Positions 1,766 through 50,440 of a DNA stretch of 50,714 nt are shown piece after piece. A program made the position numbers and the translations under genes. This DNA is from a virus (lineage: Duplodnaviria > Caudoviricetes), in IMG/VR virus record IMGVR_UViG_3300032156_000016, positions 1-50,714 of that record. One strand, 5' to 3'. The notes beneath the pieces were generated by a model, which saw nothing but the letters and a program-made list of their open reading frames with translations, was not told the DNA's origin and ran no database searches. Position 1 is the stretch's first letter, and each line of letters opens with the position of its first letter.

Positions 1766-2012
1766 ACTCTCCCATATTAGGAAATCTATTCAGTAATAAT
1801 TTGTATATTTCAGATTGTATCATTGTTCTCTTATCATCATGCGCTCTTCTAAATGCGCTAAGTATCGTATCTTTTCTTAATCCCAATAACCTTATTTCAC
1901 CTGCCATTGACGAACCATAACCATAAACTTCATTTTCAATACATATTACTTGCTCTCTGGTAAGCCAATAGTACTTTATATTTCTACCTTTCCTTAAATC
2001 TGTAGTACCCAT
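1704..2012 (-). CDS. Putative HTH-like DNA-binding protein, paralog of 2104-2349
   Basis: Shares YYxLTxxQVxxI...TxxxAFRR...TxIxxxxYKxLxxxFxxMG with its neighbour. Confidence 0.65.
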   Translation of the reverse strand: MGTTDLRKGRNIKYYWLTREQVICIENEVYGYGSSMAGEIRLLGLRKDTILSAFRRAHDDKRTMIQSEIYKLLLNRFPNMGECEFAQQKGSRAGRKGKLSLK

Positions 2013-2025
2013 ATTGCCTTTCTAT

Positions 2026-2095
2026 AAAGACGTAGGCTGCGAAACGCATTTAACCTAAATGAATAATTATATCTTTTCAGGCACCTACGTCTTTA
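2026..2095 (-). terminator. 12-bp stem with about 46-nt loop (terminator or processing hairpin)
   Basis: TAAAGACGTAGG / CCTACGTCTTTA perfect inverted repeat, intergenic. Confidence 0.5.
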
Positions 2096-2103
2096 CAAAA
2101 TAA

Positions 2104-2349
2104 CTACACTCTTTCGGATTTTCCCATACCGTGAAAAAATCTAATCAGTGGTTTATAAACAAACGTACTAATAGTAGTTTCTCCATTAGCATCTACTCGT
2201 CTAAATGCTTGAACAAATGTACTTGAATTTACTCTTGCTTTTTCTGCTAGTTCTAACATGGTCATTTCTTTTCTTTCCATTTGTTTTCTGATAAACATGA
2301 CTTGTTTTGCTGTAAGTACATAGTACTCTTCACCTGTATGCCTAGCCAT
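2104..2349 (-). CDS. XRE/Cro-like HTH protein
   Basis: MTMLELAEKARVNSSTF HTH pattern; strong RBS AGGAGGATACAATG. Confidence 0.75.
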   Translation of the reverse strand: MARHTGEEYYVLTAKQVMFIRKQMERKEMTMLELAEKARVNSSTFVQAFRRVDANGETTISTFVYKPLIRFFHGMGKSERV

Positions 2350-2421
2350 TGTATCCTCCTACAGTTAAAAGGCTAGTAAGCGCGGGCCTTTCACCCTACC
2401 GGCGATTTGATCGCTACTGGA

Positions 2422-2481
2422 AGGGAAAGACAGAGGCTAGTTATACACTCGCTACCCAGACCTTCTAGCTTGTCCTTCCCT
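2422..2481 (-). ncRNA. Stem-loop related to 11246-11305
   Basis: AGGGAAAGACA..GCTAG / CTAGC..TGTCCTTCCCT; the mismatch reads G-U on the minus strand; loop contains GGGTAGC. Confidence 0.45.
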
Positions 2482-3222
2482 AAACCCTATAAACCCTCTC
2501 TAAACCCTCTCAGAAGGGTTTACGTTGTATTAAACAAATCGTATCTTATGATCGCACGCGATCTTATAAGCTTGTGAAACATTTCACGGAAAACCCTTTT
2601 TACCCTTCCGGTTAGATCAAGGCTTAAAATTCGTGTTGATTCATTAAACTTATTCATTAAAACTACCTTATCTTTTTTATTGATATATGGTTACGCTTAC
2701 CGCAAGGGGGGGGGTATCGGACTGACCCCTTGCGGAAACAGATTCATTAGGCACTTTTCCAATCCTTTGCGGTTAAATAAGTTATCTGATTCATATTTAA
2801 TTAATTCCTTTTACCGCACAGGGTTAGGGTTAAATGCTTATAACTCAACACTTTGGTTATATTATATAGAGTTACACTCAAGTCTTTGCGGTTAAATAAG
2901 TTACTCGTTCCATATTTAAGTAACTCCTTCTACCGCACAGGGTTGTATTTTACTCTAATGAACATTCTTCCGCAAGGGGTACATCCCTGACCCCCCCCTT
3001 GCGGTTCTAATAAGTGATTGCAATATATACATTTAACCCTTGTTTAATGAATGAGTTTAATGAATAACCGTGTAAAAACATAGGGTATCTCCCCAGAAGG
3101 GTAAGAAGGGTTTTCTGTGCAACATTTCACAAGCTCCCAACGCTATACATGCACACTCTTTACCTCTCGATTAATACACCATAAACCCTTCTGAGAGGGT
3201 TTAGAGAGGGTTTAGTAGGGTT
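2481..3222. repeat. About 742-bp interrupted inverted repeat, candidate replication origin
   Basis: About ten block pairs with coordinate sums 5704/5705; 8 CCGCA boxes; internal ~60-bp direct repeat at 2765 and 2884; directly downstream of primase-helicase. Confidence 0.8.
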
Positions 3223-5907
3223 TCAGTCATGGCCGATTCCTTCTGGTATGTCTGAACCTGACCCCTCTATCTCATCGAGTATGTCTTGCGGTATCGGTTC
3301 CTCTTGTGGTTTCTCAATTATATGTTCATCACCAGTGATCGGATCGTAAATCTTTTCTCCATACATATCATTAAATTGTGCCGCAATTTCATTCGCCGTT
3401 GGCAAGAAGCCAGCGTAAAAATCTTTATCAATAGGTATTAATCGTGTTTCTTTTCCACGCCCACCGCCATGATCTAAGTAATCAAGATAGCCATGATCTC
3501 TTAATGGCTTCGACCATTTATAAATTTCTTCTTTCTTCATGTGCATTATTTCTGCTATGTCTTTATATGTTATTGAGAATTGTTCATTAGATTCTACTCT
3601 TTCATATTCATCTCCAAATAAAGTATTATTAACAGAAGGCTCATATTCTTTCCATTTATTTTTTTCCTCTATAATTCTATAATAAATATCTTTAGCCTTC
3701 GGTGGTAATTCATATAGAGTTTCTACAAGTATTTCGTTAAGAAGTATTCTAGCAATATTGTAATCGCACAAATTTGCTATTACAAATCTCCCTTCATCGG
3801 TGTCTATAATTTTTCTACCAGATTGAAACTGGTGGAAAATTGCTATAGTCTCAAGAATAGTAAGAAACCTAACTCTATCACGCATGACGCGGATTGGACT
3901 AGATGGAAATGCATCGAGTATTGATTTAACATATGGTATTCGTACTCTTAATCCCTTTTCTAAACAGCGTTGTGCATTATGAAATAATATAATCTCTTCC
4001 TTAGATAATCCTGCTGCTGTTCCTAAGTACTGTTCTTCGAGAACAACAGCAGTTTCCTGTACCTTCTCTGGACTTACCTGTACAAAGATAGAAAAGTTTC
4101 TCGTTTCATTCTCTGGGTTAATCTCAGGATTTGTAGTAGAAGTAATGAATCCACATGGGCCTTTAACTCTCTTAGTTACAGTTACCATTTCATTAGTGTC
4201 TGAATCTTTCTGCACTGTCATAATAATAAGATCGCCTTCACCTATCCCATCCTGTGCTTCCCTAATAGAATATTCTGAATCTTCAGTGCCATGCATTTCG
4301 CCAATTACTATCATCTTATGCATCAAATCATTCTCTCCAAGATAATAGAATGCTTTGGCGGTAGCTTCTTGAATCATAAATACGCCCTCTGGTGGAAAGA
4401 GGGTCATTGTTTTTTTCATTAAGTGGGTCTTTCCAGAAGATGATAAGCCTTTTACTATTGCTGATATTGGTTGTGGCATGATTCGTGATGTAAATATTAA
4501 GTACACTAAGATTTTATTAATGTCTTCTCCTACTACTTGTTGTTTTCTTAATGCTTCCTTTACTTTAAACAACAATCTACCAGAAGACAAGAACGAAATA
4601 GCCTCGCGTTTTTCATCCTCACTCATTACATATTCTTTTTTGGCTTCCTTGTCTTCCTGTTTTTCCTCCAGTTGTTGTGCGACTCCAATATTTAAATCAT
4701 TAAGTAAAGATTTTAATTGCTTCTTATCTATAGTATTATTTGTATCATACAAGTGAATAGCAAACGACGCTCTTGATCTTACATTTGAAAGATCAACAAC
4801 TCCACGATACTTAAAACCGCCCCTGTATATAACGTCAACCGTTGCACGAATTACTTGTTTTCTTTCTATTATATCTCTGACAGCAAATATTATATCATAA
4901 TCTTTTGGTACGCCATATCCAAAAAGAATTAAATTGTCACCCGATCTAATGTACATTAATTCTTTTTGTACGATACTTTTTCCAACTTGTTTCTCTACTA
5001 TAGAACCACCATTAAATAAATGATCTGATACATCATGTCCTTCTGGTAAATCAACTAAAGTAATTTCTATGTCATGTTCTATTAAGTATTCAATAGCTTT
5101 TGATTTACCAGTAATTCCAGCAGAGTCATTATCAAATATTAATACCGCCGTTTTACCTTTAAATTTTTCTGCTATTTTCTTTGGAAAATTTCCCGCCCCA
5201 AGAACAGCAATACATGAATCATATCCAGCAGTTTCCATTGCTAATGCATCTGGTATACCTTCACATACATAGATTTTTTTGGAACTCCCGCAAAGTAAAT
5301 CATAATTAAATACAGGGATATGCTTACCAAAATTATGTGTGTTAATAAATTTTGCTTCTGGTTTTAATCCAGTACATGATCTACCAGTTACGAATGTCCA
5401 TTGCTCTTGTATCTTTATGGGGAAAATGATACGTCTATAAAATTTGTTAGTATATTTTTCATTATCATAATTCATTAATCCAATCTGTACTGCTATATCT
5501 AAATCGGGATATTTTGGCCTGTCAATACTATGTCCTATACAATACTTCTTAATTATATCCATGTCTACATTACGATTAGTTGAGAAATATTCTTTTAATT
5601 CTTTAGTAATTACTAATGAGTCAATAAGTATTTGTATATACTCATTAAGTACTGTGCTATCTATTGATATTATTTCCTCTTCATACTCCTGAATATCTGC
5701 CGAATTTGCTATCTTTCCAGTTATTCCACAATGAAAACATTGAAACGCTCCCTTGCGTGTTCCTTTATTAACATAGAATTTTAGTTTATGTTTCTCTCTA
5801 CTGCCACATTCTTCATTAGGGCATAAGCATATAGATTCTGGCCCGAATCTTCCATGCTCCACCCTTTCTTCTTCTGTATCTCCGAAGCCAGGAACAATAT
5901 ATTTCAT
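3223..5907 (-). CDS. DNA primase-helicase fusion (Zn finger, TOPRIM, P-loop ATPase, probable C-terminal wHTH)
   Basis: CLCP...CFHCG Zn motif; RIIFPI; YVCEGIPDA and IFDNDSAG TOPRIM motifs; Walker A GLSSSGKT. Confidence 0.9.
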   Translation of the reverse strand: MKYIVPGFGDTEEERVEHGRFGPESICLCPNEECGSREKHKLKFYVNKGTRKGAFQCFHCGITGKIANSADIQEYEEEIISIDSTVLNEYIQILIDSLVITKELKEYFSTNRNVDMDIIKKYCIGHSIDRPKYPDLDIAVQIGLMNYDNEKYTNKFYRRIIFPIKIQEQWTFVTGRSCTGLKPEAKFINTHNFGKHIPVFNYDLLCGSSKKIYVCEGIPDALAMETAGYDSCIAVLGAGNFPKKIAEKFKGKTAVLIFDNDSAGITGKSKAIEYLIEHDIEITLVDLPEGHDVSDHLFNGGSIVEKQVGKSIVQKELMYIRSGDNLILFGYGVPKDYDIIFAVRDIIERKQVIRATVDVIYRGGFKYRGVVDLSNVRSRASFAIHLYDTNNTIDKKQLKSLLNDLNIGVAQQLEEKQEDKEAKKEYVMSEDEKREAISFLSSGRLLFKVKEALRKQQVVGEDINKILVYLIFTSRIMPQPISAIVKGLSSSGKTHLMKKTMTLFPPEGVFMIQEATAKAFYYLGENDLMHKMIVIGEMHGTEDSEYSIREAQDGIGEGDLIIMTVQKDSDTNEMVTVTKRVKGPCGFITSTTNPEINPENETRNFSIFVQVSPEKVQETAVVLEEQYLGTAAGLSKEEIILFHNAQRCLEKGLRVRIPYVKSILDAFPSSPIRVMRDRVRFLTILETIAIFHQFQSGRKIIDTDEGRFVIANLCDYNIARILLNEILVETLYELPPKAKDIYYRIIEEKNKWKEYEPSVNNTLFGDEYERVESNEQFSITYKDIAEIMHMKKEEIYKWSKPLRDHGYLDYLDHGGGRGKETRLIPIDKDFYAGFLPTANEIAAQFNDMYGEKIYDPITGDEHIIEKPQEEPIPQDILDEIEGSGSDIPEGIGHD

Positions 5908-12184: not shown

Positions 12185-12270
12185 TGGTGCCGGAGAAGAG
12201 ACTCGAACTCTTATAGCATTACTGCCGACAGATTTTAAGTCTGTTGTGTCTACCATTCCACCACTCCGGC
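12185..12270 (-). tRNA. tRNA-Leu(UAA)
   Basis: Acceptor GCCGGAG/CTCCGGC with encoded ACCA; D-loop GG; anticodon arm ACAGA-CTTAAAA-TCTGT; long variable arm; T arm AAGAG-TTCGAGT-CTCTT. Confidence 0.96.
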
Positions 12271-14319: not shown

Positions 14320-14584
14320 TTTGACGCTCCCCTGTTAAGATTAATACAGCAACTTCGGGATTTATTGTTTCGATACGCTTGAAAATCCTGGTTCGTTCTG
14401 CAAGTAATCTTTTCATTTCTCCACTGTCGTTCGAGTCCTGAAATTTTTCTAGATTTCTCTCGAAAGCGACCATGAGATTTTCTAGAAGCATTTCATCACG
14501 AAGCGAAACTAAAGTAAACATTACTGCTCTCTTTTCTGGAAAGAAATCCAAAAAACTTGGGAAAATCGCCAAAGTAGTCCCCAA
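14306..14584 (-). CDS. Hypothetical protein (true start probably downstream)
   Basis: Operon-strand ORF with weak TTG start. Confidence 0.5.
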   Translation of the reverse strand: MGTTLAIFPSFLDFFPEKRAVMFTLVSLRDEMLLENLMVAFERNLEKFQDSNDSGEMKRLLAERTRIFKRIETINPEVAVLILTGERQNVRL

Positions 14585-14621
14585 GAAGTAGTTTTTTCAG
14601 CTATATCGCAATTATCTTAAG

Positions 14622-14655
14622 TGGGTTAAAAGACCCAAGTGGGTTAAAAGACCCA
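14622..14655. promoter_or_regulatory. Two tandem TGGGT-N6-ACCCA dyad boxes
   Basis: TGGGTTAAAAGACCCA at 14622 and 14640; same motif recurs at 15529-16090. Confidence 0.7.
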
Positions 14656-14736
14656 TTTGAGATATAGTGCCGTTTTTAAGGTATATCTCAATTGAGATTT
14701 AACATATTAATTACGGTATAGCTGAAGCATAGGCAC

Positions 14737-14767
14737 AAAAAAGAGGAGCTTATTAGACTCCTCTTTT
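14737..14767 (-). terminator. Intrinsic terminator
   Basis: GAGGAG..CTCCTC stem plus T6 on the minus strand, just after the 14785 stop. Confidence 0.8.
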
Positions 14768-14784
14768 CGCGTGCCGAAAGCGCC

Positions 14785-15270
14785 CTATTTCGACTTGAGC
14801 AAAACGGACGCGATTTGATCAGCGTCAAGACCCGCGTCCTGCAAGCTTCTCGCAAGATTCGAGAGCTTGTCGATTGGATCGATGACCTTTTTGAGCGGAC
14901 GATGGTTATCCGCCTCATTGCGAGCCTTTTCCTGCTCTGCTTGCGCCGCGGCCTCGTTCGCCTTACGCTGCGTTTCGATACTTGTCCGGTGTTCGTCGAG
15001 CGCCGCGATGATGTTGTCAACTCCAATTGACTCGACCATCGCTAGCACACCGAGAAGGTTCGGAACCGAACACGAAATGAAGCGCTGCTTAAAGCCACGT
15101 TTCACTTGTACGACTGGGTTAGTTGTACGTTGTGAGATCGCTGCGGTATTCGTGTCATCGAAATACTTGTCGCCGGTATGGAGCAGAACCGATTCCATAC
15201 CTTGCGTCAAGTTTAGTTCTCTCGCAAGATCAACAAGGGTCTGCAAAGTGACGACGATCTTTTTTGGCAT
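14785..15270 (-). CDS. First early gene; GC-rich hypothetical protein with coiled-coil C-terminus
   Basis: GGGGAG SD; own terminator; downstream of sigma54-type promoter. Confidence 0.75.
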   Translation of the reverse strand: MPKKIVVTLQTLVDLARELNLTQGMESVLLHTGDKYFDDTNTAAISQRTTNPVVQVKRGFKQRFISCSVPNLLGVLAMVESIGVDNIIAALDEHRTSIETQRKANEAAAQAEQEKARNEADNHRPLKKVIDPIDKLSNLARSLQDAGLDADQIASVLLKSK

Positions 15271-15406
15271 GTTACACGCTCCCCGTGTAATGGGTTATTG
15301 AAACGTATAGGCGCAACACTTACTAAAGTGTTACGCTTGCGTTTCAGTTATCAATGAACGTACTAACACCGAAGCGCTCACCGCTTCCGGCGTCGCGACG
15401 GGCTAC

Positions 15407-15422
15407 TGCAAGCTGCATGCCA
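15407..15422 (-). promoter_or_regulatory. Sigma54 (RpoN)-type -24/-12 promoter, leftward
   Basis: Minus strand TGGCATGCAGCTTGCA closely matches TGGCAC-N5-TTGCW with GG-N10-GC spacing. Confidence 0.75.
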
Positions 15423-15599
15423 AGCGAAGCGACGATTGCGTAAGTGCTTTGATTGCAACGAGTTAAAGATGCCGGCATGGTTTGGCATGGCTTATGAATT
15501 GCGCTATAGTTGAAAAGCGCGCGTTCATTGGGTACGCAGCCCCAACGCTAAGTGACGTAACGACAACGGTTTAAGTTATACCGTATCTTTTACGCCCCT

Positions 15600-15615
15600 A
15601 GCATATACCGCGCCA
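15600..15615 (-). promoter_or_regulatory. Second sigma54-type promoter, leftward
   Basis: Minus strand TGGCGCGGTATATGCT, GG-N10-GC. Confidence 0.5.
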
Positions 15616-15797
15616 ATCGGGTTCGGGTCATTTGACCCAGGCGAGAGCGGCGCAACCGCTTTAATTGGAACGGGTTGCACTATACCGTAACTTATAGACA
15701 GCAACGATCCACTTGCGTCATTTTACCCATGGGCCAAGTGCTTTGTTTACAATGAGTTGACGATTGGTGTGGGTGCTTTGACCCAAACGGGACGTAT

Positions 15798-15813
15798 CGG
15801 CATGAGATATGCG
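15798..15813 (+). promoter_or_regulatory. Sigma54-like element, rightward
   Basis: CGGCATGAGATATGCG, GG-N10-GC; degenerate copy near 15904. Confidence 0.4.
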
Positions 15814-16275
15814 CCGAGTTAAGTGGAGTGGTGACAAGCAGTTACGGTATATCGGAAGGATTACGACGACGCCGTTTCGTGGGTGCTTTGACCCATTACG
15901 GTATGTCATAAGATATGCGATAAAGACTGATCGCCCGCGCCTGAGCGCAAAGAATACGCGATGATACTTACTAATCACAGCAACGCCATATGTGACAACG
16001 ACTTACAACGACTTCGCGCCTATACGTCACATTAATTATTGCGTCATAGTTTAACCTGCTGTCGCATATAGCGTTGGGTGCGTAGGCCCAGGGGCGATCT
16101 CACACATGGCGACACTCTCGGCGCACCGCTGGTTGAATATACACACCAAAGATAGTTTTGCATTTGAAGTTATTTCTTTACGTTTCTTTATATTCTTTTT
16201 TATTCTATTATTAAAACAAACAAACAGTGCTTATAAGCGCATATAAGCGAATCGTAGTTTCTTTATATAAAAGCA

Positions 16276-16303
16276 TTGACACAAGTAACGTATTTGTTAT
16301 CAT
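16276..16303 (+). promoter_or_regulatory. Sigma70-type promoter
   Basis: TTGACA-16-TATCAT with extended -10 TG and AT-rich upstream tract. Confidence 0.75.
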
Positions 16304-16309
16304 GCGAGT

Positions 16310-16401
16310 AAGGGTTCTCCTCCAGTTCCAGGCTGCGAAACCCTTGTGTGCATGGACGGCGGGTGCCGGTTCGATTTCCTCCCTTCCTCGTTCCGGCACC
16401 C
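16310..16401 (+). ncRNA. Two-hairpin leader or sRNA with anti-SD loops
   Basis: AAGGGTT/AACCCTT with CTCCTCC loop; GGGTGCCGG/CCGGCACCC with TTTCCTCCCTTCC loop; begins at the predicted TSS. Confidence 0.55.
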
Positions 16402-16428
16402 ATTACAAACGAAACAAACATATAACGA

Positions 16429-16839
16429 ATGTATAATGAAACCATTGAATCGTTACGAGATCAGATGAATATAGACCATACATGCTTAGGGAAATATGCA
16501 CTTGATGGATATATACATGATTTAAAAGCGGCGGTAGCGTTATTATTGAAGGAATATAATAGTAGAAAAACTGAAACGAAAAAAGAAGCGAAAGTAACAA
16601 CTAAAGATAAGGCTACTATTAATGATTTGTTAGAGTTATGTCCCGAAGAACATATGATTGAATTAAGAAAGAAATTTGACGGCGCGAAGATTGGTTCTGT
16701 TGAACGGTGGAAGATAGCGAAAGAAGCGTTAGATTTGACGGTAAATGAAGAAACAGGGAAATGGCGCATTGTTTTAGCGAGTAAGTTGTTGAATGTTTCT
16801 TTTCAGACTTTGTATTCACTTGCAAGAAAGAATAAATGA
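16429..16839 (+). CDS. Fis/NtrC-type HTH protein lacking an AAA+ domain
   Basis: C-terminal ERWKIAKEALDLT...IVLASKLLNVSFQTLYSLARK resembles the Fis-family ER..I..AL....A..LG.SR.TLY pattern. Confidence 0.7.
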   Translation: MYNETIESLRDQMNIDHTCLGKYALDGYIHDLKAAVALLLKEYNSRKTETKKEAKVTTKDKATINDLLELCPEEHMIELRKKFDGAKIGSVERWKIAKEALDLTVNEETGKWRIVLASKLLNVSFQTLYSLARKNK

Positions 16840-20119: not shown

Positions 20120-22375
20120 ATGGCCTTTCCCGCAGTATCAGGAACTCCTGCTGAGGGAGCCGTTACTTCGGCAGGCACTAGCCATGCCGTTACGTTTACG
20201 CAGACGACGGGGCATCTTGTCGTTATCGTAATCGCAACGGCGGTCACTGTCGAGGTGGTCAGCACCGATGAGGTATTCACTAATCTATTTCCAACCGTAG
20301 GGAATACTCACCGTCTCCATATCTTTTATCGGTATTTAACCGGCTCCGAGGGCGGGACGCACACATTTACGACGGCAAGCACGAAGTCGGCGTGGATTTC
20401 GTTTAACATTACGGGAGCGGATACGGTATTGACGCCTATGGTCGGCACCGTTGCAACTGCGACAAGTAATGCTCCAGATTCTCCGTCATTATCTCCAACA
20501 GGAGGTAGTAAAGATTATCTCTGGATCGCGTGTTTTCAGCAAAACGGCGAAGAAGACGATGACAACACTTGGCAGAATAATACACCGACTGGAACAGGCG
20601 GTGGGTCGTATTCTCCCGCGCTAGGTTATCAGAAAACTACGGGTATCGCTTCAGCCGCTACTACTAATACCCAGGTATGCGCGGCGTATCGTCAATATAC
20701 GGGCGCAACCGAAGACCCGTCAGCATGGAGTACCGATCAATCATTAGCTTGGCGGGCGCAGACAATTGCAATTTATCCCGAAACTCTTATTACTATTTCA
20801 GCACAAAGTATTCCACTTGCAGGATCAGTACCATCATCTACTATTACTGCTCCAGGCACGGCAACTATTAATACTGCTGCTATTTCATTAGCAGGGTCGA
20901 TACCATCTTCTGTTGTTACTGTTCCTGGCGTAGCGACAGTTACAACTACCGCTCTTCCACTAACAGGGTCAATATTATCATCTGTTATTACTACTCCAGG
21001 TATAGCTACGGTTAACGCTGCTGCTATTTCATTAGCAGGGTCGATACCATCTTCTATTATTACCGTCCCAGGAACAGCCACAATAACATTAGATGATTTA
21101 TCTCTAGTAAGTACAATAAATAATATTGCTATATGGATTACGGAGACTATTAGTTTAAATAGTTTGTCTCTAGCGTCTTCTGTAGAAAATTCTGTTATTA
21201 CAACACCAGGAATAGCGACGATAACATTAAGTAATATTTCACTTATAGGATCAATACCAAGTTCTTCAATAACTGTTCCTGGTGTTGCCACTATGACTCT
21301 TAGCGAATTAACCGCCGCGCTTGCTATTCAGAATACTATTGTTTCTGTCCCAGGAGTGGCAAGTATTCCTTTGAATTCTCTTAGTTTAAGTAGCATTGTC
21401 GGAAATATAACTATAGTTCCAATTGGTACAGTTACAATAAACCTTAATGGATTGTCATTAATATCTAGTATTGAATCAGTTATGGTAACTCCACTTGGAA
21501 CCGCAACGGTAACATTAAGTGCGTTATCTATTGGTAGCGCGGTGTATACGATAACAATTGAAATTGGTGGCGGTGAATTAGTTGAGATATCTCTTGATCA
21601 ACTTGATCTTACTTCTTCTATAAATAACTTAATTGTTAGTGTTCCTGGTACTGCAACAATACAATTAACTGGATTGATTGCTAGTTTATCACTAGAAGAT
21701 ATAAGCGTTGTTGGTGTTGGTAGTACAATTATAAGTCTTGATGAATTGTCTTTAATTGCTGATTGTAGAAATATAGCAATATATAGTGTTGGTACTGCAA
21801 TTATAGGATTAAATACTCTTGATTTAATATCTTCAGTAGAAACTATTACTGTTGCGTTAACATACTTACCATTATCTGAAAGATTACCAGCCACCACAGA
21901 AGCAATAATGCCGATTGGGGACATTTCTAAAGAATGGAATATTGCAGTTCCGAATTCAGATCATTTTTCTAACATTAATACGGGAGTAGAAGGCCCAAGC
22001 GCGCCCGATGATGCTTCTTATAATATGACTAATGCTGCTAATAAAACAGATTCTTACGTCTTAAGTGCGGGCATGAGTGGAAAAACAAGAATAGATGAAT
22101 TTACCTGGCAGTTTAGATATGCTGGAGAAGTTATTAATAAAGCCCCAGGTCTTACAATAGAACTTTGGGTAAAAGGAATATTAAGAGCTACATCTTCTGT
22201 TGATGTTAGTACGAATGGTCTTACTGATTATGTCAATGGTCAGGTATCATGGACTGGTTTGAACATAAGCGGAATAGATTGGTATGATGGGCCTAGAATA
22301 ATTAAGCACATAAGTACTTGGAATGTTCCACATGAGCTTGATGAACCAGAAGTATATTATGTTCCGGTGGAATAA
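20120..22375 (+). CDS. Fibre/adhesin-like virion protein with ~24-aa repeats
   Basis: Repeats xPGTATIxLxxLSLxxSIxxxxIT; 38-bp DNA repeat at 20874 and 21018 (144-bp spacing). Confidence 0.7.
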   Translation: MAFPAVSGTPAEGAVTSAGTSHAVTFTQTTGHLVVIVIATAVTVEVVSTDEVFTNLFPTVGNTHRLHIFYRYLTGSEGGTHTFTTASTKSAWISFNITGADTVLTPMVGTVATATSNAPDSPSLSPTGGSKDYLWIACFQQNGEEDDDNTWQNNTPTGTGGGSYSPALGYQKTTGIASAATTNTQVCAAYRQYTGATEDPSAWSTDQSLAWRAQTIAIYPETLITISAQSIPLAGSVPSSTITAPGTATINTAAISLAGSIPSSVVTVPGVATVTTTALPLTGSILSSVITTPGIATVNAAAISLAGSIPSSIITVPGTATITLDDLSLVSTINNIAIWITETISLNSLSLASSVENSVITTPGIATITLSNISLIGSIPSSSITVPGVATMTLSELTAALAIQNTIVSVPGVASIPLNSLSLSSIVGNITIVPIGTVTINLNGLSLISSIESVMVTPLGTATVTLSALSIGSAVYTITIEIGGGELVEISLDQLDLTSSINNLIVSVPGTATIQLTGLIASLSLEDISVVGVGSTIISLDELSLIADCRNIAIYSVGTAIIGLNTLDLISSVETITVALTYLPLSERLPATTEAIMPIGDISKEWNIAVPNSDHFSNINTGVEGPSAPDDASYNMTNAANKTDSYVLSAGMSGKTRIDEFTWQFRYAGEVINKAPGLTIELWVKGILRATSSVDVSTNGLTDYVNGQVSWTGLNISGIDWYDGPRIIKHISTWNVPHELDEPEVYYVPVE

Positions 22376-25786: not shown

Positions 25787-26071
25787 ATGACAATTCCAAA
25801 CGAAGGAAGAGATATCATTTGGGTTGCAGTTTCCACTGTTGCTTCAATGTTATTAGGATGGTTACAGAAGAAGATTAAGAAACCCGACCCGAAAATTCCT
25901 AATAGTACTATTCCACTTGTGAATACTACTGCATCCGGCGTAGTCGGTACGTTGGCCGGTGGGCCTATCGGTGGATTGTTAGCTATTGGCGGGTCTGTAA
26001 TTGGTAATATTGTTCATGAAGTTTATAAGAGTAGACAGGTCGCTGACGCTGTTACTCCAGATAGTAAATAA
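25787..26071 (+). CDS. Holin-like membrane protein with glycine zipper
   Basis: Hydrophobic segments; GxxxG repeats. Confidence 0.55.
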   Translation: MTIPNEGRDIIWVAVSTVASMLLGWLQKKIKKPDPKIPNSTIPLVNTTASGVVGTLAGGPIGGLLAIGGSVIGNIVHEVYKSRQVADAVTPDSK

Positions 26072-27795
26072 TGAAATCAAATTGGGCATCAAGGAATCTT
26101 ACTTCAGTTGACAGACTGGAGAAGATTCATAATCCTAAGATATTTGCAAAGACATTTGGTTTAAAAGAGCCATTTATGTTTTGTGCGAATGAGGATTGTA
26201 TTTATATGCCCAAGTCAGCGTGTCCTGCTGGTAAGTTGAAAGATTCGTGTCAAAACTGTTCTTCATTAGACTATGCATTTGGATGTGATCACTTTATAGG
26301 TAAGCCCTTTCAATCTGCTGTTCTATCTTCATCTGTATCTGGCAAGTATAATATTATTACTATAGTAACAGGAAGAGGAACCGGAAAATCTAGTGTTATT
26401 AATACACAAAAAGCAATAATGGAATCTACAACAGAGCCGTATATAAGGGCTTACCTATCTAAATCTAGAATTCCAATACCAGCAAAGATTCTTGTTGTTG
26501 GAAATACTAAGGCAACATCTTTATTACTTAGACATTCTATACATAATACATTTCAATCCAGTGAAAGTTTATATAGCTTTGTTAAGGATGATACTAAAAC
26601 TTATATATCTACTAATGATGGATCGTGTGAGATGTTCTTCCTTACTGCCGGAGTGGATGGCCGTGGTCTTCGCGGACATCATGCAGAGGTAGTTCGTAAT
26701 ATAGAAAAGCTTTCTGTTAAATCGACTATAATATTTATACTCGATGAAGGTATGTTTACAAGAGCAACGAATGTTATAAGTGAAGTAATGATGCCATCAT
26801 TACAAGTTGGAAATATATTCTCCCAAGTTCTTACCACCAGTACTCCGTATGGAAACAAAAATGAAATATCAGAAATGCGTAAGAATCCGATAAAGTCTCA
26901 GCTTGATTTACAATTTGCTTCTTACCATAATAGATTTACTAATTTAAAACTATTACATAGTTTAAGAGAAAAGATGGTCAATGCTGGTCAAGGTACTATA
27001 TATAATAGAGAAGTACTTGGCCTTGAAGTATCAGATGATTCATTGTATTGGTCTTTTAAGGTTTGGTCTAAATCAATAGATGATTCAGTTGATTGGCTAG
27101 ACATAGAAGAAGTAGAAGAATTAAAACGGTCTGCTTCTTCTCTTCCTATACCTGGAGCATATTATTGCGGTATTGATCCTAACAAGTTCAGGCAAATACA
27201 AGGTGGAGATTTTGCAGCATATCATTTAGTGCAAGTAACACAAGATAGAAGAAGAGTAAGGGCATTATCTTTTGGAAAGTATTTAATGGATACTGATGAT
27301 AAATTTATTGATAAACTTGAAATAATTAATGATGTGTTTCGTCCAGTATTTTGTGTTGATGAAAATAGTGGATATGCTCAAAAGCTTAGGTCTAGGGGAT
27401 TTGATGTTCGCAACTGTTCTAATAAACGAAGTGAAATGAATCCAGCAATGAGAATTTGGAAACAAGATATCATTGATGGTATATATAAGCAACCATTTTC
27501 TCAAGCATGGGAAGATGAGAGGCAATGTTTCGTTCCAAAGGAAGATGGTATATCAAACATTCCAATATTAGATCATAAAGGAAATTGGGGACAAGGATTC
27601 TCTAGTGATTTAATGAGAAGCTGTGGATATATATATGAACAGTTAGTGAAAGATTATTCAATAGATGGTTCTAGTCAGATTGTCGTACATTCTTTTGAAG
27701 ATAATGTTGATATTGTACGTCCTAATCTTTCCGATAATGTGTTTGATAGAATTCTCAAATCGTCAGAATCAAGATTCACAAGGCTAAAAAAATGA
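26071..27795 (+). CDS. terL: Terminase large subunit
   Basis: Walker A TGRGTGKS, GLRG, Walker B FILDE, TSTP, nuclease GID..D; precedes portal. Confidence 0.9.
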   Translation: MKSNWASRNLTSVDRLEKIHNPKIFAKTFGLKEPFMFCANEDCIYMPKSACPAGKLKDSCQNCSSLDYAFGCDHFIGKPFQSAVLSSSVSGKYNIITIVTGRGTGKSSVINTQKAIMESTTEPYIRAYLSKSRIPIPAKILVVGNTKATSLLLRHSIHNTFQSSESLYSFVKDDTKTYISTNDGSCEMFFLTAGVDGRGLRGHHAEVVRNIEKLSVKSTIIFILDEGMFTRATNVISEVMMPSLQVGNIFSQVLTTSTPYGNKNEISEMRKNPIKSQLDLQFASYHNRFTNLKLLHSLREKMVNAGQGTIYNREVLGLEVSDDSLYWSFKVWSKSIDDSVDWLDIEEVEELKRSASSLPIPGAYYCGIDPNKFRQIQGGDFAAYHLVQVTQDRRRVRALSFGKYLMDTDDKFIDKLEIINDVFRPVFCVDENSGYAQKLRSRGFDVRNCSNKRSEMNPAMRIWKQDIIDGIYKQPFSQAWEDERQCFVPKEDGISNIPILDHKGNWGQGFSSDLMRSCGYIYEQLVKDYSIDGSSQIVVHSFEDNVDIVRPNLSDNVFDRILKSSESRFTRLKK

Positions 27796-47613: not shown

Positions 47614-48288
47614 TTAGCCTTCTCCCCCATTCTTATATTGTAAATACCTAGTTCTTACTTCATCAGCAACACCATGAAAGCGATGATCAAACATCATCTG
47701 ATTCATAGCATTACGTTCATATGTTTTAATTTTTAAGGATGATGGACTAATGCAATACGCAACAAAATATCTTGCAACATGAACAGCACACAAAGCATCA
47801 TACTGATGCTCATCTGGCATAGAAGTTTTATATATATTCCATATAGCCTTAATCATTTTTACTTTTTCTGAGTGTCCAAATCCTGTTACAAAATATTTCA
47901 TCAATGATGCTGATGGTTTGATAACTGGTATCTCCATCTTAGCAAGAGCAGCTAGTATTACTCCATGTGTTTCTGCTAACTGAAGTGGACTTCTATCCCT
48001 ATTCTTTACATCTTCATCTGTTGCGTCTTTATCGCCATAGATATAATCTTCAACTGAGGCAAGTATTATTTCTTTGCCTAAATTAGACAGTATTCCTACT
48101 AACATTGATGCTATTAAATTATTCCTAAAATGTTCAGAGTTATAATCACGAATAGACCTTGCCTCTCCAAGAGAAATGTTTATGGTTTCATTATGATCCA
48201 CTTTTTTCTCCAGCAGATTCCAAGATACTACTCCGGTATGTTGCCTTCCTACATCTATGCCTATGATTCGCATTTGCGTGCCTCTCAT
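47614..48288 (-). CDS. RuvC-like Holliday junction resolvase (start probably 48273)
   Basis: IIGIDVG..TG, VED, E..GV, K.FVTG.G...K, DEH.YDA. Confidence 0.88.
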   Translation of the reverse strand: MRGTQMRIIGIDVGRQHTGVVSWNLLEKKVDHNETINISLGEARSIRDYNSEHFRNNLIASMLVGILSNLGKEIILASVEDYIYGDKDATDEDVKNRDRSPLQLAETHGVILAALAKMEIPVIKPSASLMKYFVTGFGHSEKVKMIKAIWNIYKTSMPDEHQYDALCAVHVARYFVAYCISPSSLKIKTYERNAMNQMMFDHRFHGVADEVRTRYLQYKNGGEG

Positions 48289-48319
48289 AAGGAAAAGTCC
48301 AGGCTACCCTCCTACTGGC

Positions 48320-48484
48320 CTATCTTACAATATCTGGTCCCTGCTCCGTCCGTTTGTAGTGTACGTCCTCGAATGGCACACCCCATTCCCACTGACACCC
48401 CATCGTTGGACAACGCCACCCAATCCAGTCGCGCCTAAGCTTTGCGCCACAGAACTTGCAATAGATCAATCGTTCTCGCTTCAT
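48320..48484 (-). CDS. 54-aa Zn-finger protein
   Basis: Not in track; MKRERLIYCKFCGAKL...WRCPTMGCQW...; ATGA-coupled. Confidence 0.65.
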   Translation of the reverse strand: MKRERLIYCKFCGAKLRRDWIGWRCPTMGCQWEWGVPFEDVHYKRTEQGPDIVR

Positions 48485-48825
48485 GTCTTGTCCTGCTCCG
48501 TCAGGCGACCAACCGCCGACATAAGCGGGTCAACCATCCCTTTGATATTCGCCTCGTATGTCATCTGGTCATCATGTCTCGCAAGGAAGGCAACGAAGTC
48601 CTTCGCCGCCTCGATCACGTCCTTGACTCTCTCCGCGTGGGCGTCCCAACCACGTTTAGCGTGAAAGTGGGCGTCCTCGTGATACCGCGAAGCTGTACGA
48701 AGGGAGCTTGTTCCGCCGTTATCCCACCATGCCTCAAACTCCTCATCCTTCTGGGCTGATTGGGCCGTTTCTGAGCCGTTGTTGTTCATGGCTTGGCCTC
48801 CGGTTCTTTTCCTGTTCCCATGCAC
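48481..48825 (-). CDS. Hypothetical protein (likely start 48789)
   Basis: GGAGG SD before MNNNG; EFEAWW motif; GC-rich. Confidence 0.65.
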   Translation of the reverse strand: MHGNRKRTGGQAMNNNGSETAQSAQKDEEFEAWWDNGGTSSLRTASRYHEDAHFHAKRGWDAHAERVKDVIEAAKDFVAFLARHDDQMTYEANIKGMVDPLMSAVGRLTEQDKT

Positions 48826-49226
48826 TGGTAGCAGTTCATTGTTCCAAGTTGACTAGATACGGTTAGCTTGCCGTTACAAACTCGACACGGTTTCTCTTCC
48901 TCTCCATGTGGTTGAAGTTTCTGGCACTCGCGGGAGGCGGCGACGGTTTGGCGCAGGTGGTCGTATGATGCTTGTTTCGCCACTCCACAACGTATTGACT
49001 CAATAAGCGACAGCGTCGCCCTCAACACCGGCTCCACGTCGGCGCGGTAGGCGGCGAAGGCTTGCTCAATCTCGCGCTTCTCGATCTCGGCATCATTCTG
49101 ATCGCGGCAGTAGATGGAGCAGTAGCCGTCGATGCGAAACTCCTCGTCCTTGCATCCTTCCCTCGCGCACAAACGTACGCCGTTGACCATGCGAATCGGC
49201 CAACCGAAGTCGTCTCTATCGTTCAT
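48786..49226 (-). CDS. Cys-rich hypothetical protein
   Basis: C..C/YCS.YC and DnaJ-like CxxCxG pairs. Confidence 0.7.
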   Translation of the reverse strand: MNDRDDFGWPIRMVNGVRLCAREGCKDEEFRIDGYCSIYCRDQNDAEIEKREIEQAFAAYRADVEPVLRATLSLIESIRCGVAKQASYDHLRQTVAASRECQKLQPHGEEEKPCRVCNGKLTVSSQLGTMNCYQCMGTGKEPEAKP

Positions 49227-49374
49227 GGCTTCTCTTTTGCCGCGTCGTCATCATCGTCGTCGTCATTGGGTCGTTCTCGTTTCCGAACGTCTCTGTCGGT
49301 ATCTCTTCCGCTCACAGCGTCAGCAATTGCCTTCCCGGGATTGCTTAACAATTTCCATAGCCACCATTCTCCCA

Positions 49375-49701
49375 TTAGCTTTTCTCCTTTGCGTCGAGGG
49401 CGGGCCGCAGAATGTTGGCCGCTTGCTCCATTCCAGTGTCAACGCCATAGCCATACACGTCGTCAGAGTTGCCCCAATCCCCATATTCGCAGTCCGCTTC
49501 GTAATTCTTAGGAGCGCGAGACAGCACTTCCCGTGCTGCGCTCTCAATCCCCCGTAGCCTCTCGATCTCTGCGCGTTGAAGGGCGTCGTGGGCGCGTATC
49601 GCGTTGCGGTGTTCTGCTATCCACGGGGGCCAGTAACTACCAGCCCCAAGCATTTTCTCTAGCTCATCCTCCGTCAGAATCTTGCTCTTGTCGGTCATCA
49701 C
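49375..49701 (-). CDS. Hypothetical protein (GC-rich branch)
   Basis: GAGGAG SD; coupled. Confidence 0.65.
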   Translation of the reverse strand: MMTDKSKILTEDELEKMLGAGSYWPPWIAEHRNAIRAHDALQRAEIERLRGIESAAREVLSRAPKNYEADCEYGDWGNSDDVYGYGVDTGMEQAANILRPALDAKEKS

Positions 49702-49982
49702 AGCTCCTCGGTTTCCGTTACGCCGTAAAGGCGGACACTCTCCCTAACGATTGTTGGGCTGTTGTCAACGTGCTCGATGATTGAACTCACGGGCGTATCG
49801 CCTGGAATAATCCAGTGATGCGTCTCGCGTGTGAGACCATCAAGGATGTCGTACTGGAACAGCACTTTGTCTTTTACCGCGTCGCTCACTTCTTCCTCCG
49901 TTTCTCGACGACCCTCACGCAGCCGTCCTCTCAATTCTTGGTGGCGCTGGCCGCTAGTCCATCTAGCGTGAGCTGGCAGCAT
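49698..49982 (-). CDS. Hypothetical protein (start probably downstream)
   Basis: GGAGG precedes internal GTG (VSDAVK). Confidence 0.45.
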   Translation of the reverse strand: MLPAHARWTSGQRHQELRGRLREGRRETEEEVSDAVKDKVLFQYDILDGLTRETHHWIIPGDTPVSSIIEHVDNSPTIVRESVRLYGVTETEEL

Positions 49983-50002
49983 CCAGATACCAGCGCCATG
50001 TC

Positions 50003-50440
50003 TTAGCTCTCCCCACGCTTCCAGCCGTGAACCTCGCAGATGATCTTCCGCTTGAGCGAGGCGATCTTGTCACCGTCTCGTTGAATCGGCGGGTAAAGGG
50101 CCACAAGCCACAGCCGGTCGCCTTTCCATTGACTCGGATTGAACGTTCCGTGAAGAGCGCGCGGAGTGCAAATCTCTAGTGGCCCAGCAATCTCCTGCAC
50201 GCTTCCGGGTATCACGGGCACGCCCTTTCCGCCGTTGCAGGCTTTCCCTTCGGCGTCCGAGAACCAGAACGCATACTCAGCGTCGGTGTCGGTTTCTCCG
50301 CGTTCCCTTGCTAAGTGCTCTGCAAAAGTTTTATAGCCGTCGCCGTAGCCGTCGCCGGAGCCGTCGCCGTCGCCGGAGCCGTAGCCGGAGCCGGAGCCGT
50401 AGCCGTAGCCGTAGCCGTAGCCGGAGATTTCCGCTCTCAT
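50003..50440 (-). CDS. Phage protein with GY/GS/GD dipeptide repeat
   Basis: 6-bp tandem repeats at about 50335-50425. Confidence 0.75.
   Translation of the reverse strand: MRAEISGYGYGYGYGSGSGYGSGDGDGSGDGYGDGYKTFAEHLARERGETDTDAEYAFWFSDAEGKACNGGKGVPVIPGSVQEIAGPLEICTPRALHGTFNPSQWKGDRLWLVALYPPIQRDGDKIASLKRKIICEVHGWKRGES

What the first reader, a model, noticed from the sequence alone, without database searches (positions are those of the whole stretch)
2481..3222. 742-bp register-locked dyad next to the primase-helicase
Seen: complementary blocks pair at a constant register, for example 2526/3178, 2569/3135, 2589/3115, 2639/3065, 2699/3005 (sum 5704), then 2725/2980, 2743/2962, 2761/2944 (sum 5705 after a G9 versus C8 run). 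The spacers keep equal length but are not complementary. Eight CCGCA boxes form four nested inverted pairs, with AAACCCT triplets at both ends. Inference: selection acts on spacing of protein sites rather than RNA pairing, consistent with a mirror-symmetric bidirectional origin. A cruciform, resolution site or invertible segment are alternatives.
Basis: partly seen in the sequence, partly recalled or inferred. Interest (0 to 1): 0.8.

Follow-up and report, generated by a model that had tools for sequence, protein, structure and literature searches.

The report
Mirror-image replication origin beside phage helicase
A 742-base mirror-symmetric stretch right after a phage primase-helicase gene is most likely the phage's replication origin, made of two opposed sets of short docking sites for that helicase; this is a larger variant of a known origin type.

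Summary
Positions 2481-3222 form the strongest long-range dyad in this 50.7-kb phage record: register sum 5704 ranks first of 99,946 registers, z 10.7. Conserved blocks are 75-100% complementary. The spacers between them have equal length but only random complementarity (11-30%).

The dyad starts at the stop codon of an 894-aa protein. That protein is a DnaG-type primase fused to an MCM-like AAA+ helicase (VIA Z 21.7), ending in a winged-helix domain. Each arm carries AAACCCT heptamers arranged as three direct, one inverted, a gap, then two direct.

Both independent close relatives carry a comparable dyad after their primase-helicase gene. Among 72 distant helicase homologues, mostly from Bacteroidota, 24 have their top heptamer cluster at the stop codon (3.9 expected). 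Several show the same 3+1+2 arrangement, but one-sided.

This matches the pri-rep-ori layout described for staphylococcal SaPI islands. My best reading (about 0.7) is an origin with two mirrored landing pads for a self-loading helicase.

Nothing functional was tested. GC skew shows no inflection at the dyad, and a second repeat-rich non-coding region lies at 15-16 kb. I rate it a new variant of a known kind, of moderate interest.

The parts
2481..3222 (.). Whole register-locked dyad, the proposed two-pad replication origin. It is non-coding and lies between the primase-helicase stop codon and the next gene.
3223..5907 (-). 894-aa DnaG-type primase (zinc finger and Toprim) fused to an MCM-like AAA+ helicase (PF27228), with a C-terminal winged helix. 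Proposed initiator and self-loading helicase.
3183..3223 (-). Gene-proximal outer heptamer array. Three direct AAACCCT (3217, 3207, 3196 on the - strand) plus one inverted (3183). The first heptamer overlaps the last base of the stop codon.
3087..3135 (-). Gene-proximal inner block: palindrome TGTGCAACATTTCACA followed by two heptamers (AAACCCT and TTACCCT, 9 nt apart).
2482..2521 (+). Distal outer heptamer array, the mirror image of the proximal one: AAACCCT at 2482, 2491 and 2502, plus an inverted copy at 2515.
2569..2617 (+). Distal inner block: palindrome TGTGAAACATTTCAC followed by two heptamers. It resembles the box-plus-heptamer block of relative L003.
2639..2690 (.). AT-rich stretch (82% AT, about the 99th percentile of duplex instability in the genome). 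It holds two tandem 13-mers, ATTCATTAAAC(T/A)(T/C). Candidate unwinding element of the distal pad.
3010..3080 (.). Mirror AT-rich stretch (75% AT) with the two 13-mers in inverted orientation (3043-3065).
2699..2736 (.). GC-rich local hairpin CCGCAAGGGG...CCCCTTGCGG with a 10-bp stem. DNA folding energy -12.7 kcal/mol, z -4.0.
2969..3005 (.). Mirror GC-rich hairpin with a 10-bp stem. DNA folding energy -11.9 kcal/mol, z -5.2.
2760..2944 (.). Centre of the dyad. Two direct 66-nt units (2760-2825 and 2879-2944, period 119, 85% identical), each with its own TGCGG/CCGCA dyad, around an AT-rich core at 2830-2869.
2104..2349 (-). 81-aa protein with a weak winged-HTH match and a strong Shine-Dalgarno sequence. 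It is the first gene of the variable block downstream of the dyad and has no homologue in the relatives.

Best explanation
The dyad is the phage's replication origin for its own primase-helicase. It consists of two mirror-image landing pads. Read inward from its outer edge, each pad has:
- three direct and one inverted AAACCCT heptamer;
- a 16-bp palindrome, TGTGAA-N4-TTTCAC;
- two more heptamers;
- an AT-rich stretch with two tandem 13-mers;
- a GC-rich hairpin.

Proposed mechanism:
1. The 894-aa protein forms an MCM-like hexamer.
2. Its C-terminal winged-helix domains dock on the heptamers of one pad.
3. A second hexamer docks on the mirrored pad in the opposite orientation.
4. The AT-rich 13-mer stretches melt.
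5. The fused DnaG-type primase lays the first primers, and forks leave in both directions.

Shown here: the sequence anatomy, its position at the stop codon, the predicted protein folds, and the conservation of the arrangement in relatives.

Inferred: heptamer binding, hexamer number and orientation, melting, bidirectionality, and any role for the palindromes, hairpins and central 119-bp units.
For: 1. Statistics. It is the strongest dyad in the genome, z 10.7. Blocks are conserved while spacers are random in sequence but equal in length. AAACCCT is about 40-fold enriched in the region.

2. The adjacent protein.
- The N-terminus matches DnaG primases: PDB 2au3 at 1e-24, plus Toprim and DNAG_N in Pfam.
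- The C-terminal 555 aa were modelled at pLDDT 81.5. All 50 listed Foldseek hits are MCM chains, best E 3e-9. VIA gives Z 21.7, rmsd 2.9 A over 274 residues.
- The last 160 aa, modelled alone at pLDDT 77, match only winged-helix proteins in the 50 entries shown, Z 7.9-9.3.

3. Close relatives (43-53% identical helicases).
- In L003 the top dyad of the locus lies about 460-840 nt after the gene (59-nt arms, 92% complementary, z 6.2).
- In L006/L007 it lies about 310-800 nt after the gene (83-nt arms).
- Their heptamers are AAACCGT. L003 also shares the TGTGAA-N3-TTTCAC-N-GAAAACC block.
- All three centres hold two direct units of period 107-119.

4. Distant PF27228 homologues.
- One search returned 80 genome loci, of which 78 were usable and 72 were unique genes.
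- The top 7-mer cluster (4 or more copies) lies within -100 to +300 nt of the helicase stop in 24, elsewhere in 25, and 23 have none. If placement were uniform, 3.9 would be expected near the stop.
- L034, L070, L062 and L082 share the window's arrangement: three direct (8-11 nt apart), one inverted, a gap of 41-76 nt, then two direct.

5. Winged-helix residues. In the predicted recognition helix they track heptamer type across these loci. The window has YK where both close relatives, which carry AAACCGT, have RR.

6. Literature.
- In SaPIs the ori lies immediately downstream of rep, with 5-7-nt iterons opposed around an AT-rich centre and read by a C-terminal winged helix (PMC9371898, passages).
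- A preprint shows four C-terminal domains of PriRep5 bound to three direct and one inverted iteron (10.64898/2026.10.17.759575, introduction and first results section).
- Phage SF6 helicases fused to primases, with a C-terminal wHTH, are described in PMC4889955 (passages).
Against: - No functional data of any kind exist for this element.
- GC skew is uniformly negative across the dyad. Its turning points, at about 15 kb and 47 kb, coincide with switches of transcription direction.
- A second repeat-rich non-coding region of 1.15 kb sits at the skew minimum (15271-16428). It could be the origin instead, or a second one.
- The element is about 2.5 times longer than the ~300-bp SaPI ori. Its inner heptamers are about 500 bp apart, which is far for a head-to-head double hexamer.
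- The palindromes, hairpins and central tandem units have no assigned role.
- The close relatives are only two independent lineages, since L006 and L007 differ at 4 of 855 nt. Their arms carry four heptamers, not six.
- 25 of 72 distant loci have their top cluster elsewhere and 23 have none.
- The two distant viral loci show no 4-copy cluster at the stop codon (L004, L011).
- The match between winged-helix residues and heptamer type is confounded by phylogeny.
Confidence: 0.7

Rival explanations
1. The dyad is a transcription control region. It would combine a terminator for the primase-helicase operon with operators and a promoter for the variable gene block downstream. The palindromes and heptamers would be bound by regulators, phage or host, and not by the helicase.
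For: - The region must contain a promoter for the 81-aa winged-HTH gene and the genes after it, all on the - strand.
- TGTGAA-N4-TTTCAC is a palindrome of the kind bound by dimeric HTH regulators. It resembles the CRP consensus TGTGA-N6-TCACA, which I recall and did not test.
- The small winged-HTH gene lies next door.
Against: - The 81-aa protein has no homologue in the relatives, although L003 shares the palindrome and both lineages share the heptamers.
- The consensus scan finds no sigma-70-like promoter inside the dyad and only two weak terminator-like sites.
- The heptamer cluster tracks the helicase stop codon across distant elements with quite different downstream genes.
- The two functions are not exclusive, because origins often overlap promoters.
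Confidence: 0.12
2. The dyad is a recombination substrate. It could be an invertible segment between the 33-nt perfect inverted repeats, a cruciform or resolution site for the phage RuvC-like nuclease, or a hotspot where accessory gene cassettes are exchanged.
For: - The perfect 33-nt inverted repeats 2490-2522 and 3182-3214 flank the interior.
- The independent contig of run X1 breaks exactly there, so contigs cannot fix the orientation of the interior.
- The dyad marks the border between the conserved replication module and a block with no homologues in the relatives. In the window that block includes genes of 49-56% GC.
- A RuvC-like gene lies at 47614-48288.
Against: - No invertase, integrase or protelomerase was found among the 32 ORFs scanned with Pfam. 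The three largest tail genes and many small ORFs were not scanned.
- The interior has no coding content or promoter that a flip would switch.
- The centre is not a perfect palindrome, which a hairpin-telomere site requires.
- Overall complementarity is only about 50%, so the whole 742 bp cannot extrude as a cruciform. Only the short local hairpins fold.
Confidence: 0.08
3. The dyad is a partition (centromere-like) site or a packaging site made of repeated protein-binding boxes.
For: Clustered short repeats in both orientations are also typical of parS-like and pac sites. This is general knowledge and was not tested here.
Against: - No ParA or ParB-like protein was found among the ORFs scanned.
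- The terminase gene is 23 kb away at 26071-27795.
- The cluster is tied to the helicase gene across the family.
Confidence: 0.04
4. The dyad is an assembly fold-back artefact.
For: None beyond the symmetry itself.
Against: - The arms are only about 50% complementary, with diverged spacers.
- An independent contig reproduces 2493-3211 exactly, at the same depth as the flank: 8.28 against 8.02.
- The relatives carry analogous elements.
Confidence: 0.01

Closest known systems
SaPI (Staphylococcus aureus pathogenicity island) pri-rep-ori replicon. Examples are SaPI5 PriRep5 with its ori, and the MCM-like (SF6) Rep of SaPI2 and its SaPIbov1 homologue.
   Same: - The origin lies immediately downstream of the helicase ORF.
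- Iterons of 5-7 nt stand in opposite orientation on either side of AT-rich DNA.
- The helicase is a self-loading AAA+ hexamer with a C-terminal winged helix, sometimes fused to the primase.
- A group of three direct plus one inverted iteron is bound by four C-terminal domains.

Sources: PMC9371898, passages; bioRxiv 10.64898/2026.10.17.759575, introduction and first results section.
   Different: - The element is 742 bp, against about 300 bp.
- Each arm has two tiers of heptamers separated by a palindrome.
- It also has mirrored 13-mers, GC hairpins and a central pair of 119-bp direct units.
- The spacers are strictly locked in length.
- The helicase belongs to PF27228 and is fused to a DnaG-type primase.
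- The carrier is a 50-kb tailed phage, not a satellite.
- No sequence similarity to SaPI proteins was tested.
- The iteron map in the preprint's supplementary figure could not be seen.
Phage P4 gp-alpha with its ori and crr sites
   Same: One polypeptide combines a DnaG-type primase, an AAA+ helicase and a C-terminal origin-binding domain (PMC4889955, passages). It binds short repeats present in both orientations (recalled).
   Different: The P4 helicase is SF3 (D5-like), not MCM-like. P4 ori and crr are separate sites kilobases apart, and crr holds two direct repeats of about 120 bp. These details are recalled and come from no call. No P4 sequence was compared here.
Phage SF6 helicases (MCM-related, DUF3987) associated with primases (Kazlauskas et al. 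2016, PMC4889955)
   Same: The protein class is the same: a helicase distantly related to MCM, fused to or next to a DnaG or AEP primase, with a C-terminal wHTH.
   Different: The passages I read name no origin for these phages. The window protein carries PF27228 in the precomputed annotation, and its relation to DUF3987 was not tested.
Dyad-symmetric viral origins (SV40, papillomavirus) and MCM double-hexamer loading
   Same: A mirror-symmetric origin positions two AAA+ hexamers in opposite orientation. This is general knowledge; head-to-head MCM loading is mentioned in PMC9371898.
   Different: Those cores span tens of bp and use an unrelated origin-binding domain or separate loaders. Here the pads are hundreds of bp apart.
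telRL target of protelomerase in N15-like phages
   Same: A large palindromic non-coding site lies in a phage genome next to a DNA-processing gene (recalled).
   Different: This dyad has no perfect central palindrome, and no protelomerase was found among the ORFs scanned.

Membership tests
Iteron origin of a self-loading helicase (SaPI pri-rep-ori type) | Lies immediately downstream of the helicase or initiator ORF | tested here: met
   The first heptamer overlaps the last base of the stop codon at 3223. Among 72 distant homologues, 24 place their top cluster at the stop, against 3.9 expected.
Iteron origin of a self-loading helicase (SaPI pri-rep-ori type) | Multiple short (5-7 nt) iterons, at least two on each side pointing in opposite directions | tested here: met
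   Ten exact AAACCCT copies lie in the region, plus two TTACCCT, giving six per arm in mirror orientation.
Iteron origin of a self-loading helicase (SaPI pri-rep-ori type) | AT-rich region between the opposed iteron sets | tested here: met
   AT content is 82% at 2640-2690, 75% at 3010-3080 and 78% at 2770-2809 and 2830-2869. These stretches are interrupted by GC hairpins, unlike a single AT-rich core.
Iteron origin of a self-loading helicase (SaPI pri-rep-ori type) | Helicase carries a C-terminal winged-helix domain | tested here: met
   The last 160 aa were modelled at pLDDT 77. All 50 entries shown by VIA are winged-helix proteins, Z 7.9-9.3. Pfam gives HTH_36 only below threshold, E 0.022. 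This rests on a predicted structure.
Iteron origin of a self-loading helicase (SaPI pri-rep-ori type) | The helicase binds the iterons, melts the DNA and supports autonomous replication | not testable with these tools
   Needs EMSA or footprinting and a minireplicon assay.
MCM-like (SF6) AAA+ helicase | MCM-type AAA+ fold | tested here: met
   All 50 listed Foldseek hits are MCM2-7 or archaeal MCM chains, best E 3e-9. VIA gives Z 21.7, rmsd 2.9 A, 274 residues aligned, model residues 79-393. Sequence identity is only 10-15%, and Pfam MCM was not matched.
MCM-like (SF6) AAA+ helicase | Walker A motif and a conserved arginine after sensor 1 | tested here: inconclusive
   GLSSSGKT and the invariant ETRNF are conserved in 13 homologues. 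Assigning R603 as the arginine finger is my own reading and was not tested on the structure.
DnaG-type primase | Zinc finger, RNA-polymerase core and Toprim domain | tested here: met
   Toprim_2, Toprim_4, Toprim_3 and DNAG_N in Pfam. PDB primases 2au3 at 1e-24 and 5guj at 6.5e-24. TIGR01391 at 1.2e-23, but below its curated cutoff.
Protelomerase target (telRL) | Perfect palindrome at the centre, and a protelomerase gene | tested here: not met
   The centre 2826-2852 is 48% complementary to its mirror. No protelomerase was found among the 32 ORFs scanned with Pfam.
Invertible DNA segment (Gin/Hin/Cin type) | Adjacent serine invertase, and a switchable gene or promoter inside | tested here: not met
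   No recombinase was found among the ORFs scanned. The interior has no ORF with family support and no consensus promoter. The orientation of the interior could not be read from contigs.
Structured RNA or intrinsic terminator | Rfam match, or a GC stem followed by a U-run | tested here: not met
   The only Rfam hit in 2000-3700 lies outside the dyad and is a chance-level miRNA model, E 0.17. Neither GC hairpin is followed by a T-run on either strand.

The most novel reading that the evidence does not exclude
The dyad is a loader-free licensing platform in a bacterial virus. Two MCM-like primase-helicase hexamers would each read a six-heptamer pad (3 direct, 1 inverted, 2 direct) with their six winged-helix domains, and would be held in fixed mirror geometry by the length-locked spacers. 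The one-sided pad found at the stop codon of PF27228 helicase genes in Bacteroidota mobile elements would be the ancestral single-hexamer form. The phage lineage would then have duplicated and inverted it to gain bidirectional firing. The mirrored hairpins would serve as the first priming sites for the fused DnaG primase.
Probability: 0.3. Interest if true: 0.7.

Novelty: new variant of a known kind. Interest (0 to 1): 0.5.

Why it matters
Papers on SaPI helicases state that it is still open how self-loading helicases get onto duplex DNA, and whether two hexamers load head-to-head (PMC9371898 discussion; preprint introduction).

This phage offers a natural substrate for that question. It has two complete landing pads in exact mirror register. 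The pads can be compared with one-sided versions of the same arrangement in many Bacteroidota elements.

The finding also gives a predicted origin and initiator to a phage lineage in which most proteins match no family. Finally, it gives a simple rule for locating candidate origins next to PF27228 helicase genes: look for a heptamer cluster at the stop codon.

Tried and rejected
- **DNA search in phages.** blastn of 2350-3230 against the phage collection found nothing.
- **First relative search.** A single-protein scan of viral contigs found no relative. An alignment-based scan was needed.
- **Genome contigs.** The first scan, with the close-relative alignment, found nothing. The second, with the broader alignment, gave 80 loci.
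- **Motif scan.** The box-plus-heptamer motif in viral contigs returned only the contig of L003.
- **Distant viral loci.** L004 and L011 showed no 4-copy 7-mer cluster at the helicase stop. L004 has two copies of TTTCCCGTTTCGGGG about 270-325 nt downstream.
- **Rfam.** Nothing in the dyad.
- **Promoter and terminator scan.** No promoter-like site inside the dyad, and counts no higher than in shuffles.
- **Sequencing runs.** One DNA holder (X1), kept as contigs only, and no RNA holder listed. Coverage inflection, inversion and expression therefore could not be read.
- **GC skew.** It does not mark the dyad.
- **Literature.** A search for the Pfam name MTBMA_p00010 found no paper. A search for P4 ori/crr details returned nothing usable, so those details are recalled.
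- **Closed supplements.** The iteron map of SaPI5 ori (Supplementary Figure 1 of the preprint) and the supplementary tables of PMC4889955 were not seen.
- **Rejected readings.** A telRL-type site, a whole-element cruciform, an sRNA and an assembly fold-back, for the reasons given under the rival explanations.

Full report
**Context**

The window is a complete IMG/VR virus record of 50,714 bp. It is a tailed phage. It has a large terminase gene at 26071-27795 and long tail genes on the + strand. Early and replication genes lie on the - strand from about 15 kb down to 1, continuing at 48-50.7 kb.

Synteny with relatives runs primase-helicase, dyad, variable genes, RuvC-like gene, then a convergent tail-fibre gene. 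This shows that the two ends of the record join. Most proteins match no family.

Positions 2481-3222 are non-coding. They lie between the stop codon of an 894-aa gene (3223-5907, - strand) and the start of an 81-aa gene (2104-2349, - strand).

- Register sum 5704 gives 208 of 412 complementary positions and sum 5705 gives 176 of 413. Neighbouring registers give 92-134.
- The one-base shift between the two registers comes from a G9 run facing a C8 run.
- Genome-wide, register 5704 is first of 99,946 (z 10.7). The next unrelated register scores 151 against 200.
- One thousand dinucleotide-preserving shuffles of the region reach at most 260 self-complementary positions, against 400 observed.
- Blocks are 75-100% complementary. 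Spacers of 35, 21, 37 and 9 nt are 11-30% complementary, which is random, yet have identical length in both arms.
- Apart from the single G/C-run base, there is no indel in about 370 nt per arm although the spacers are saturated with substitutions. Distances are therefore under selection, and pairing is not.
- The eight CCGCA boxes form four nested mirror pairs, and AAACCCT is about 40-fold enriched, 10 of 16 genome copies.
- An independent contig of run X1 reproduces 2493-3211 without a difference and at the same depth as the flank. That rules out a fold-back artefact.

**Anatomy**

Reading inward from either end:

1. Three direct AAACCCT heptamers (9-10 and 11 nt apart) and one inverted copy 13 nt further on.
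2. A spacer.
3. A 16-bp palindrome, TGTGAA-N4-TTTCAC, followed directly by two more heptamers 9 nt apart.
4. An AT-rich stretch (82% AT on the left) holding two tandem 13-mers.
5. A GC-rich hairpin with a 10-bp stem (-12.7 and -11.9 kcal/mol as DNA; no shuffle folds as well).
6. At the centre, two direct 66-nt units with a 119-nt period, each with its own TGCGG/CCGCA dyad, around an AT-rich core.

The first heptamer of the gene-proximal arm overlaps the last base of the stop codon.

**The neighbouring protein**

- The N-terminal third is a DnaG-type primase.
- The C-terminal 555 residues were modelled with a 34-sequence alignment (pLDDT 81.5). They match only MCM chains in the 50 listed Foldseek hits. 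VIA aligns them to MCM AAA+ modules at Z 21.7, rmsd 2.9 A, over 274 residues.
- The precomputed annotation and the Atlas place this part in PF27228.
- The last 160 residues, modelled alone (pLDDT 77), match winged-helix DNA-binding proteins in all 50 entries shown (Z 7.9-9.3).

The protein is therefore a primase, MCM-like helicase and winged-helix fusion. That class was described for phages by Kazlauskas et al. (PMC4889955, passages).

**Close relatives**

Twelve homologues at 43-53% identity exist. DNA downstream of the gene could be fetched for two independent lineages. These are L003 (also fetched as L005, L009 and L010) and L006/L007, which differ at 4 of 855 nt. L008 ends inside the gene.

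- In both lineages the strongest dyad of the locus lies just after the gene and a small extra ORF. L003 has 59-nt arms, 92% complementary (z 6.2). L006/L007 have 83-nt arms, 82-86% complementary.
- Their heptamers are AAACCGT.
- L003 also has the same palindrome-plus-heptamer block as the window.
- All three centres contain two direct units of period 107-119 with unrelated sequence.
- The genes after the dyad share no homology between phages.

**Distant relatives**

A scan with the broader alignment returned 80 loci from bacterial genomes, mostly Bacteroidota. Of these, 78 were usable and 72 carried unique genes.

- The top cluster of a 7-mer (at least four copies in 250 bp, either strand) lies within -100 to +300 nt of the helicase stop in 24 loci, elsewhere in 25, and is absent in 23. 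Uniform placement would give 3.9 near the stop.
- The heptamers differ between groups. Even so, L034, L070, L062 and L082 show the same layout as one arm of the window: three direct, one inverted, a gap of 41-76 nt, then two direct.
- In those elements the pad is one-sided. In the window and its close relatives it is mirrored.
- Residues of the predicted recognition helix track heptamer type across these loci. The window has YK where the AAACCGT phages have RR. This is suggestive only, because it is confounded by relatedness.

**Comparison with what is known**

The layout is that of the SaPI pri-rep-ori replicon. There the ori lies immediately downstream of rep. Iterons of 5-7 nt are opposed around an AT-rich centre. 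They are read by the C-terminal winged helix of a self-loading SF3 or MCM-like helicase that can be fused to the primase (PMC9371898, passages).

A 2026 preprint shows four C-terminal domains of one PriRep5 hexamer on three direct and one inverted iteron (10.64898/2026.10.17.759575, introduction and first results section). Phage P4 gp-alpha is a second analogue (the ori/crr details are recalled).

The present element differs in several ways. It is 742 bp against about 300 bp. Its arms are two-tiered, and it carries additional palindromes, 13-mers and hairpins. Its centre holds a tandem pair of units, its spacers are locked in length, and its helicase belongs to a different family.

**What speaks against the origin reading**

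- Nothing functional was tested.
- GC skew shows no turn at the dyad. It turns at about 15 kb and 47 kb, where transcription changes strand.
- A 1.15-kb GC-rich non-coding region full of GGGT-N7-ACCC palindromes and TTACGGTATA repeats sits at the 15-kb turn. It could be a regulatory switch or another origin.
- The inner heptamers of the two pads are about 500 bp apart, so a contacting double hexamer is not obvious.
- The relatives' arms carry four heptamers, not six.
- Half of the distant loci do not show a cluster at the stop codon by the simple exact 7-mer test.

**Rivals**

- A transcription control region is plausible as an overlapping function. It is unlikely as the sole function, because the neighbouring 81-aa winged-HTH protein is not conserved while the sites are.
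- Inversion between the 33-nt perfect repeats cannot be excluded from contigs. However, no recombinase was found among the 32 ORFs scanned, and nothing inside would be switched by a flip.
- A hairpin-telomere site is excluded, because there is no perfect central palindrome.

**Verdict**

The best explanation is a two-pad origin for a self-loading primase-helicase, with confidence about 0.7. I rate it a new variant of a known kind, of moderate interest. Its main value is as a natural substrate for studying how two self-loading hexamers are placed, and as a rule for finding origins next to PF27228 helicase genes.

Noticed in passing
window 14560-16450: A repeat-rich control region surrounds the 161-aa gene at 14785-15270 (- strand). 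It includes a 1.15-kb non-coding stretch of about 50% GC (15271-16428), located at the switch of transcription direction and at the cumulative GC-skew minimum. It holds at least six GGGT-N7-ACCC palindromes, counting a perfect 18-nt tandem at 14619-14654. It also holds at least six TTACGGTATA-like boxes in both orientations. It may be an immunity or regulatory switch, or a second origin.
   Followed up: partly
window 48300-50714: A block of small - strand ORFs has 49-56% GC in a genome of 33-39% GC. It lies in the variable region between the dyad and the RuvC-like gene, with no homologues in the relatives, and looks recently acquired. It contains a (TAGCCG)x15 repeat at 50334-50423 inside ORF 50003-50440.
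   Followed up: no
L012-L091, for example L034 3318-3412, L070 1508-1611, L062 5305-5399, L082 1434-1522: In Bacteroidota mobile elements, PF27228 helicase genes end in a one-sided pad of six short repeats starting at or just before the stop codon: three direct, one inverted, a gap, then two direct. The repeat sequence differs between groups and tracks residues of the predicted recognition helix. In the examples I viewed, the next ORF begins like a tyrosine-recombinase N-terminus; that is my reading and was not tested.
   Followed up: partly
L006 3600-3607 versus L007 4028-4035: Two nearly identical contigs differ at 4 of 855 nt. Three of the four are adjacent and change the outermost heptamer from AAACCGTT in L007 to AAACCCCC in L006.
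   Followed up: no
window 47614-48288 (- strand): A RuvC-like Holliday-junction resolvase gene (Pfam RuvC at 4.3e-05, NCBIfam at 1e-07). It is conserved in the relatives next to the convergent tail-fibre gene.
   Followed up: no
window 20829-21063: A 72-nt tandem repeat (3.3 copies, 71% matches) lies inside the 751-aa ORF 20120-22375, which matches no family. This GC-richer area also gives the second-highest dyad scores in the genome (centres at about 21.2-21.5 kb).
   Followed up: no
window 12185-12270 (- strand): A tRNA-Leu(TAA) gene lies among the early genes.
   Followed up: no
L004 4526-4578: In a distant high-GC viral relative (26-29% identical helicase), two exact copies of TTTCCCGTTTCGGGG, 23 nt apart, lie about 270-325 nt after the helicase stop, beyond a 91-aa ORF.
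   Followed up: no
window 2493-3211: The independent contig of run X1 ends 3 nt inside each 33-nt perfect inverted repeat (2490-2522 and 3182-3214). Short-word assemblies therefore cannot fix the orientation of the interior.
   Followed up: partly
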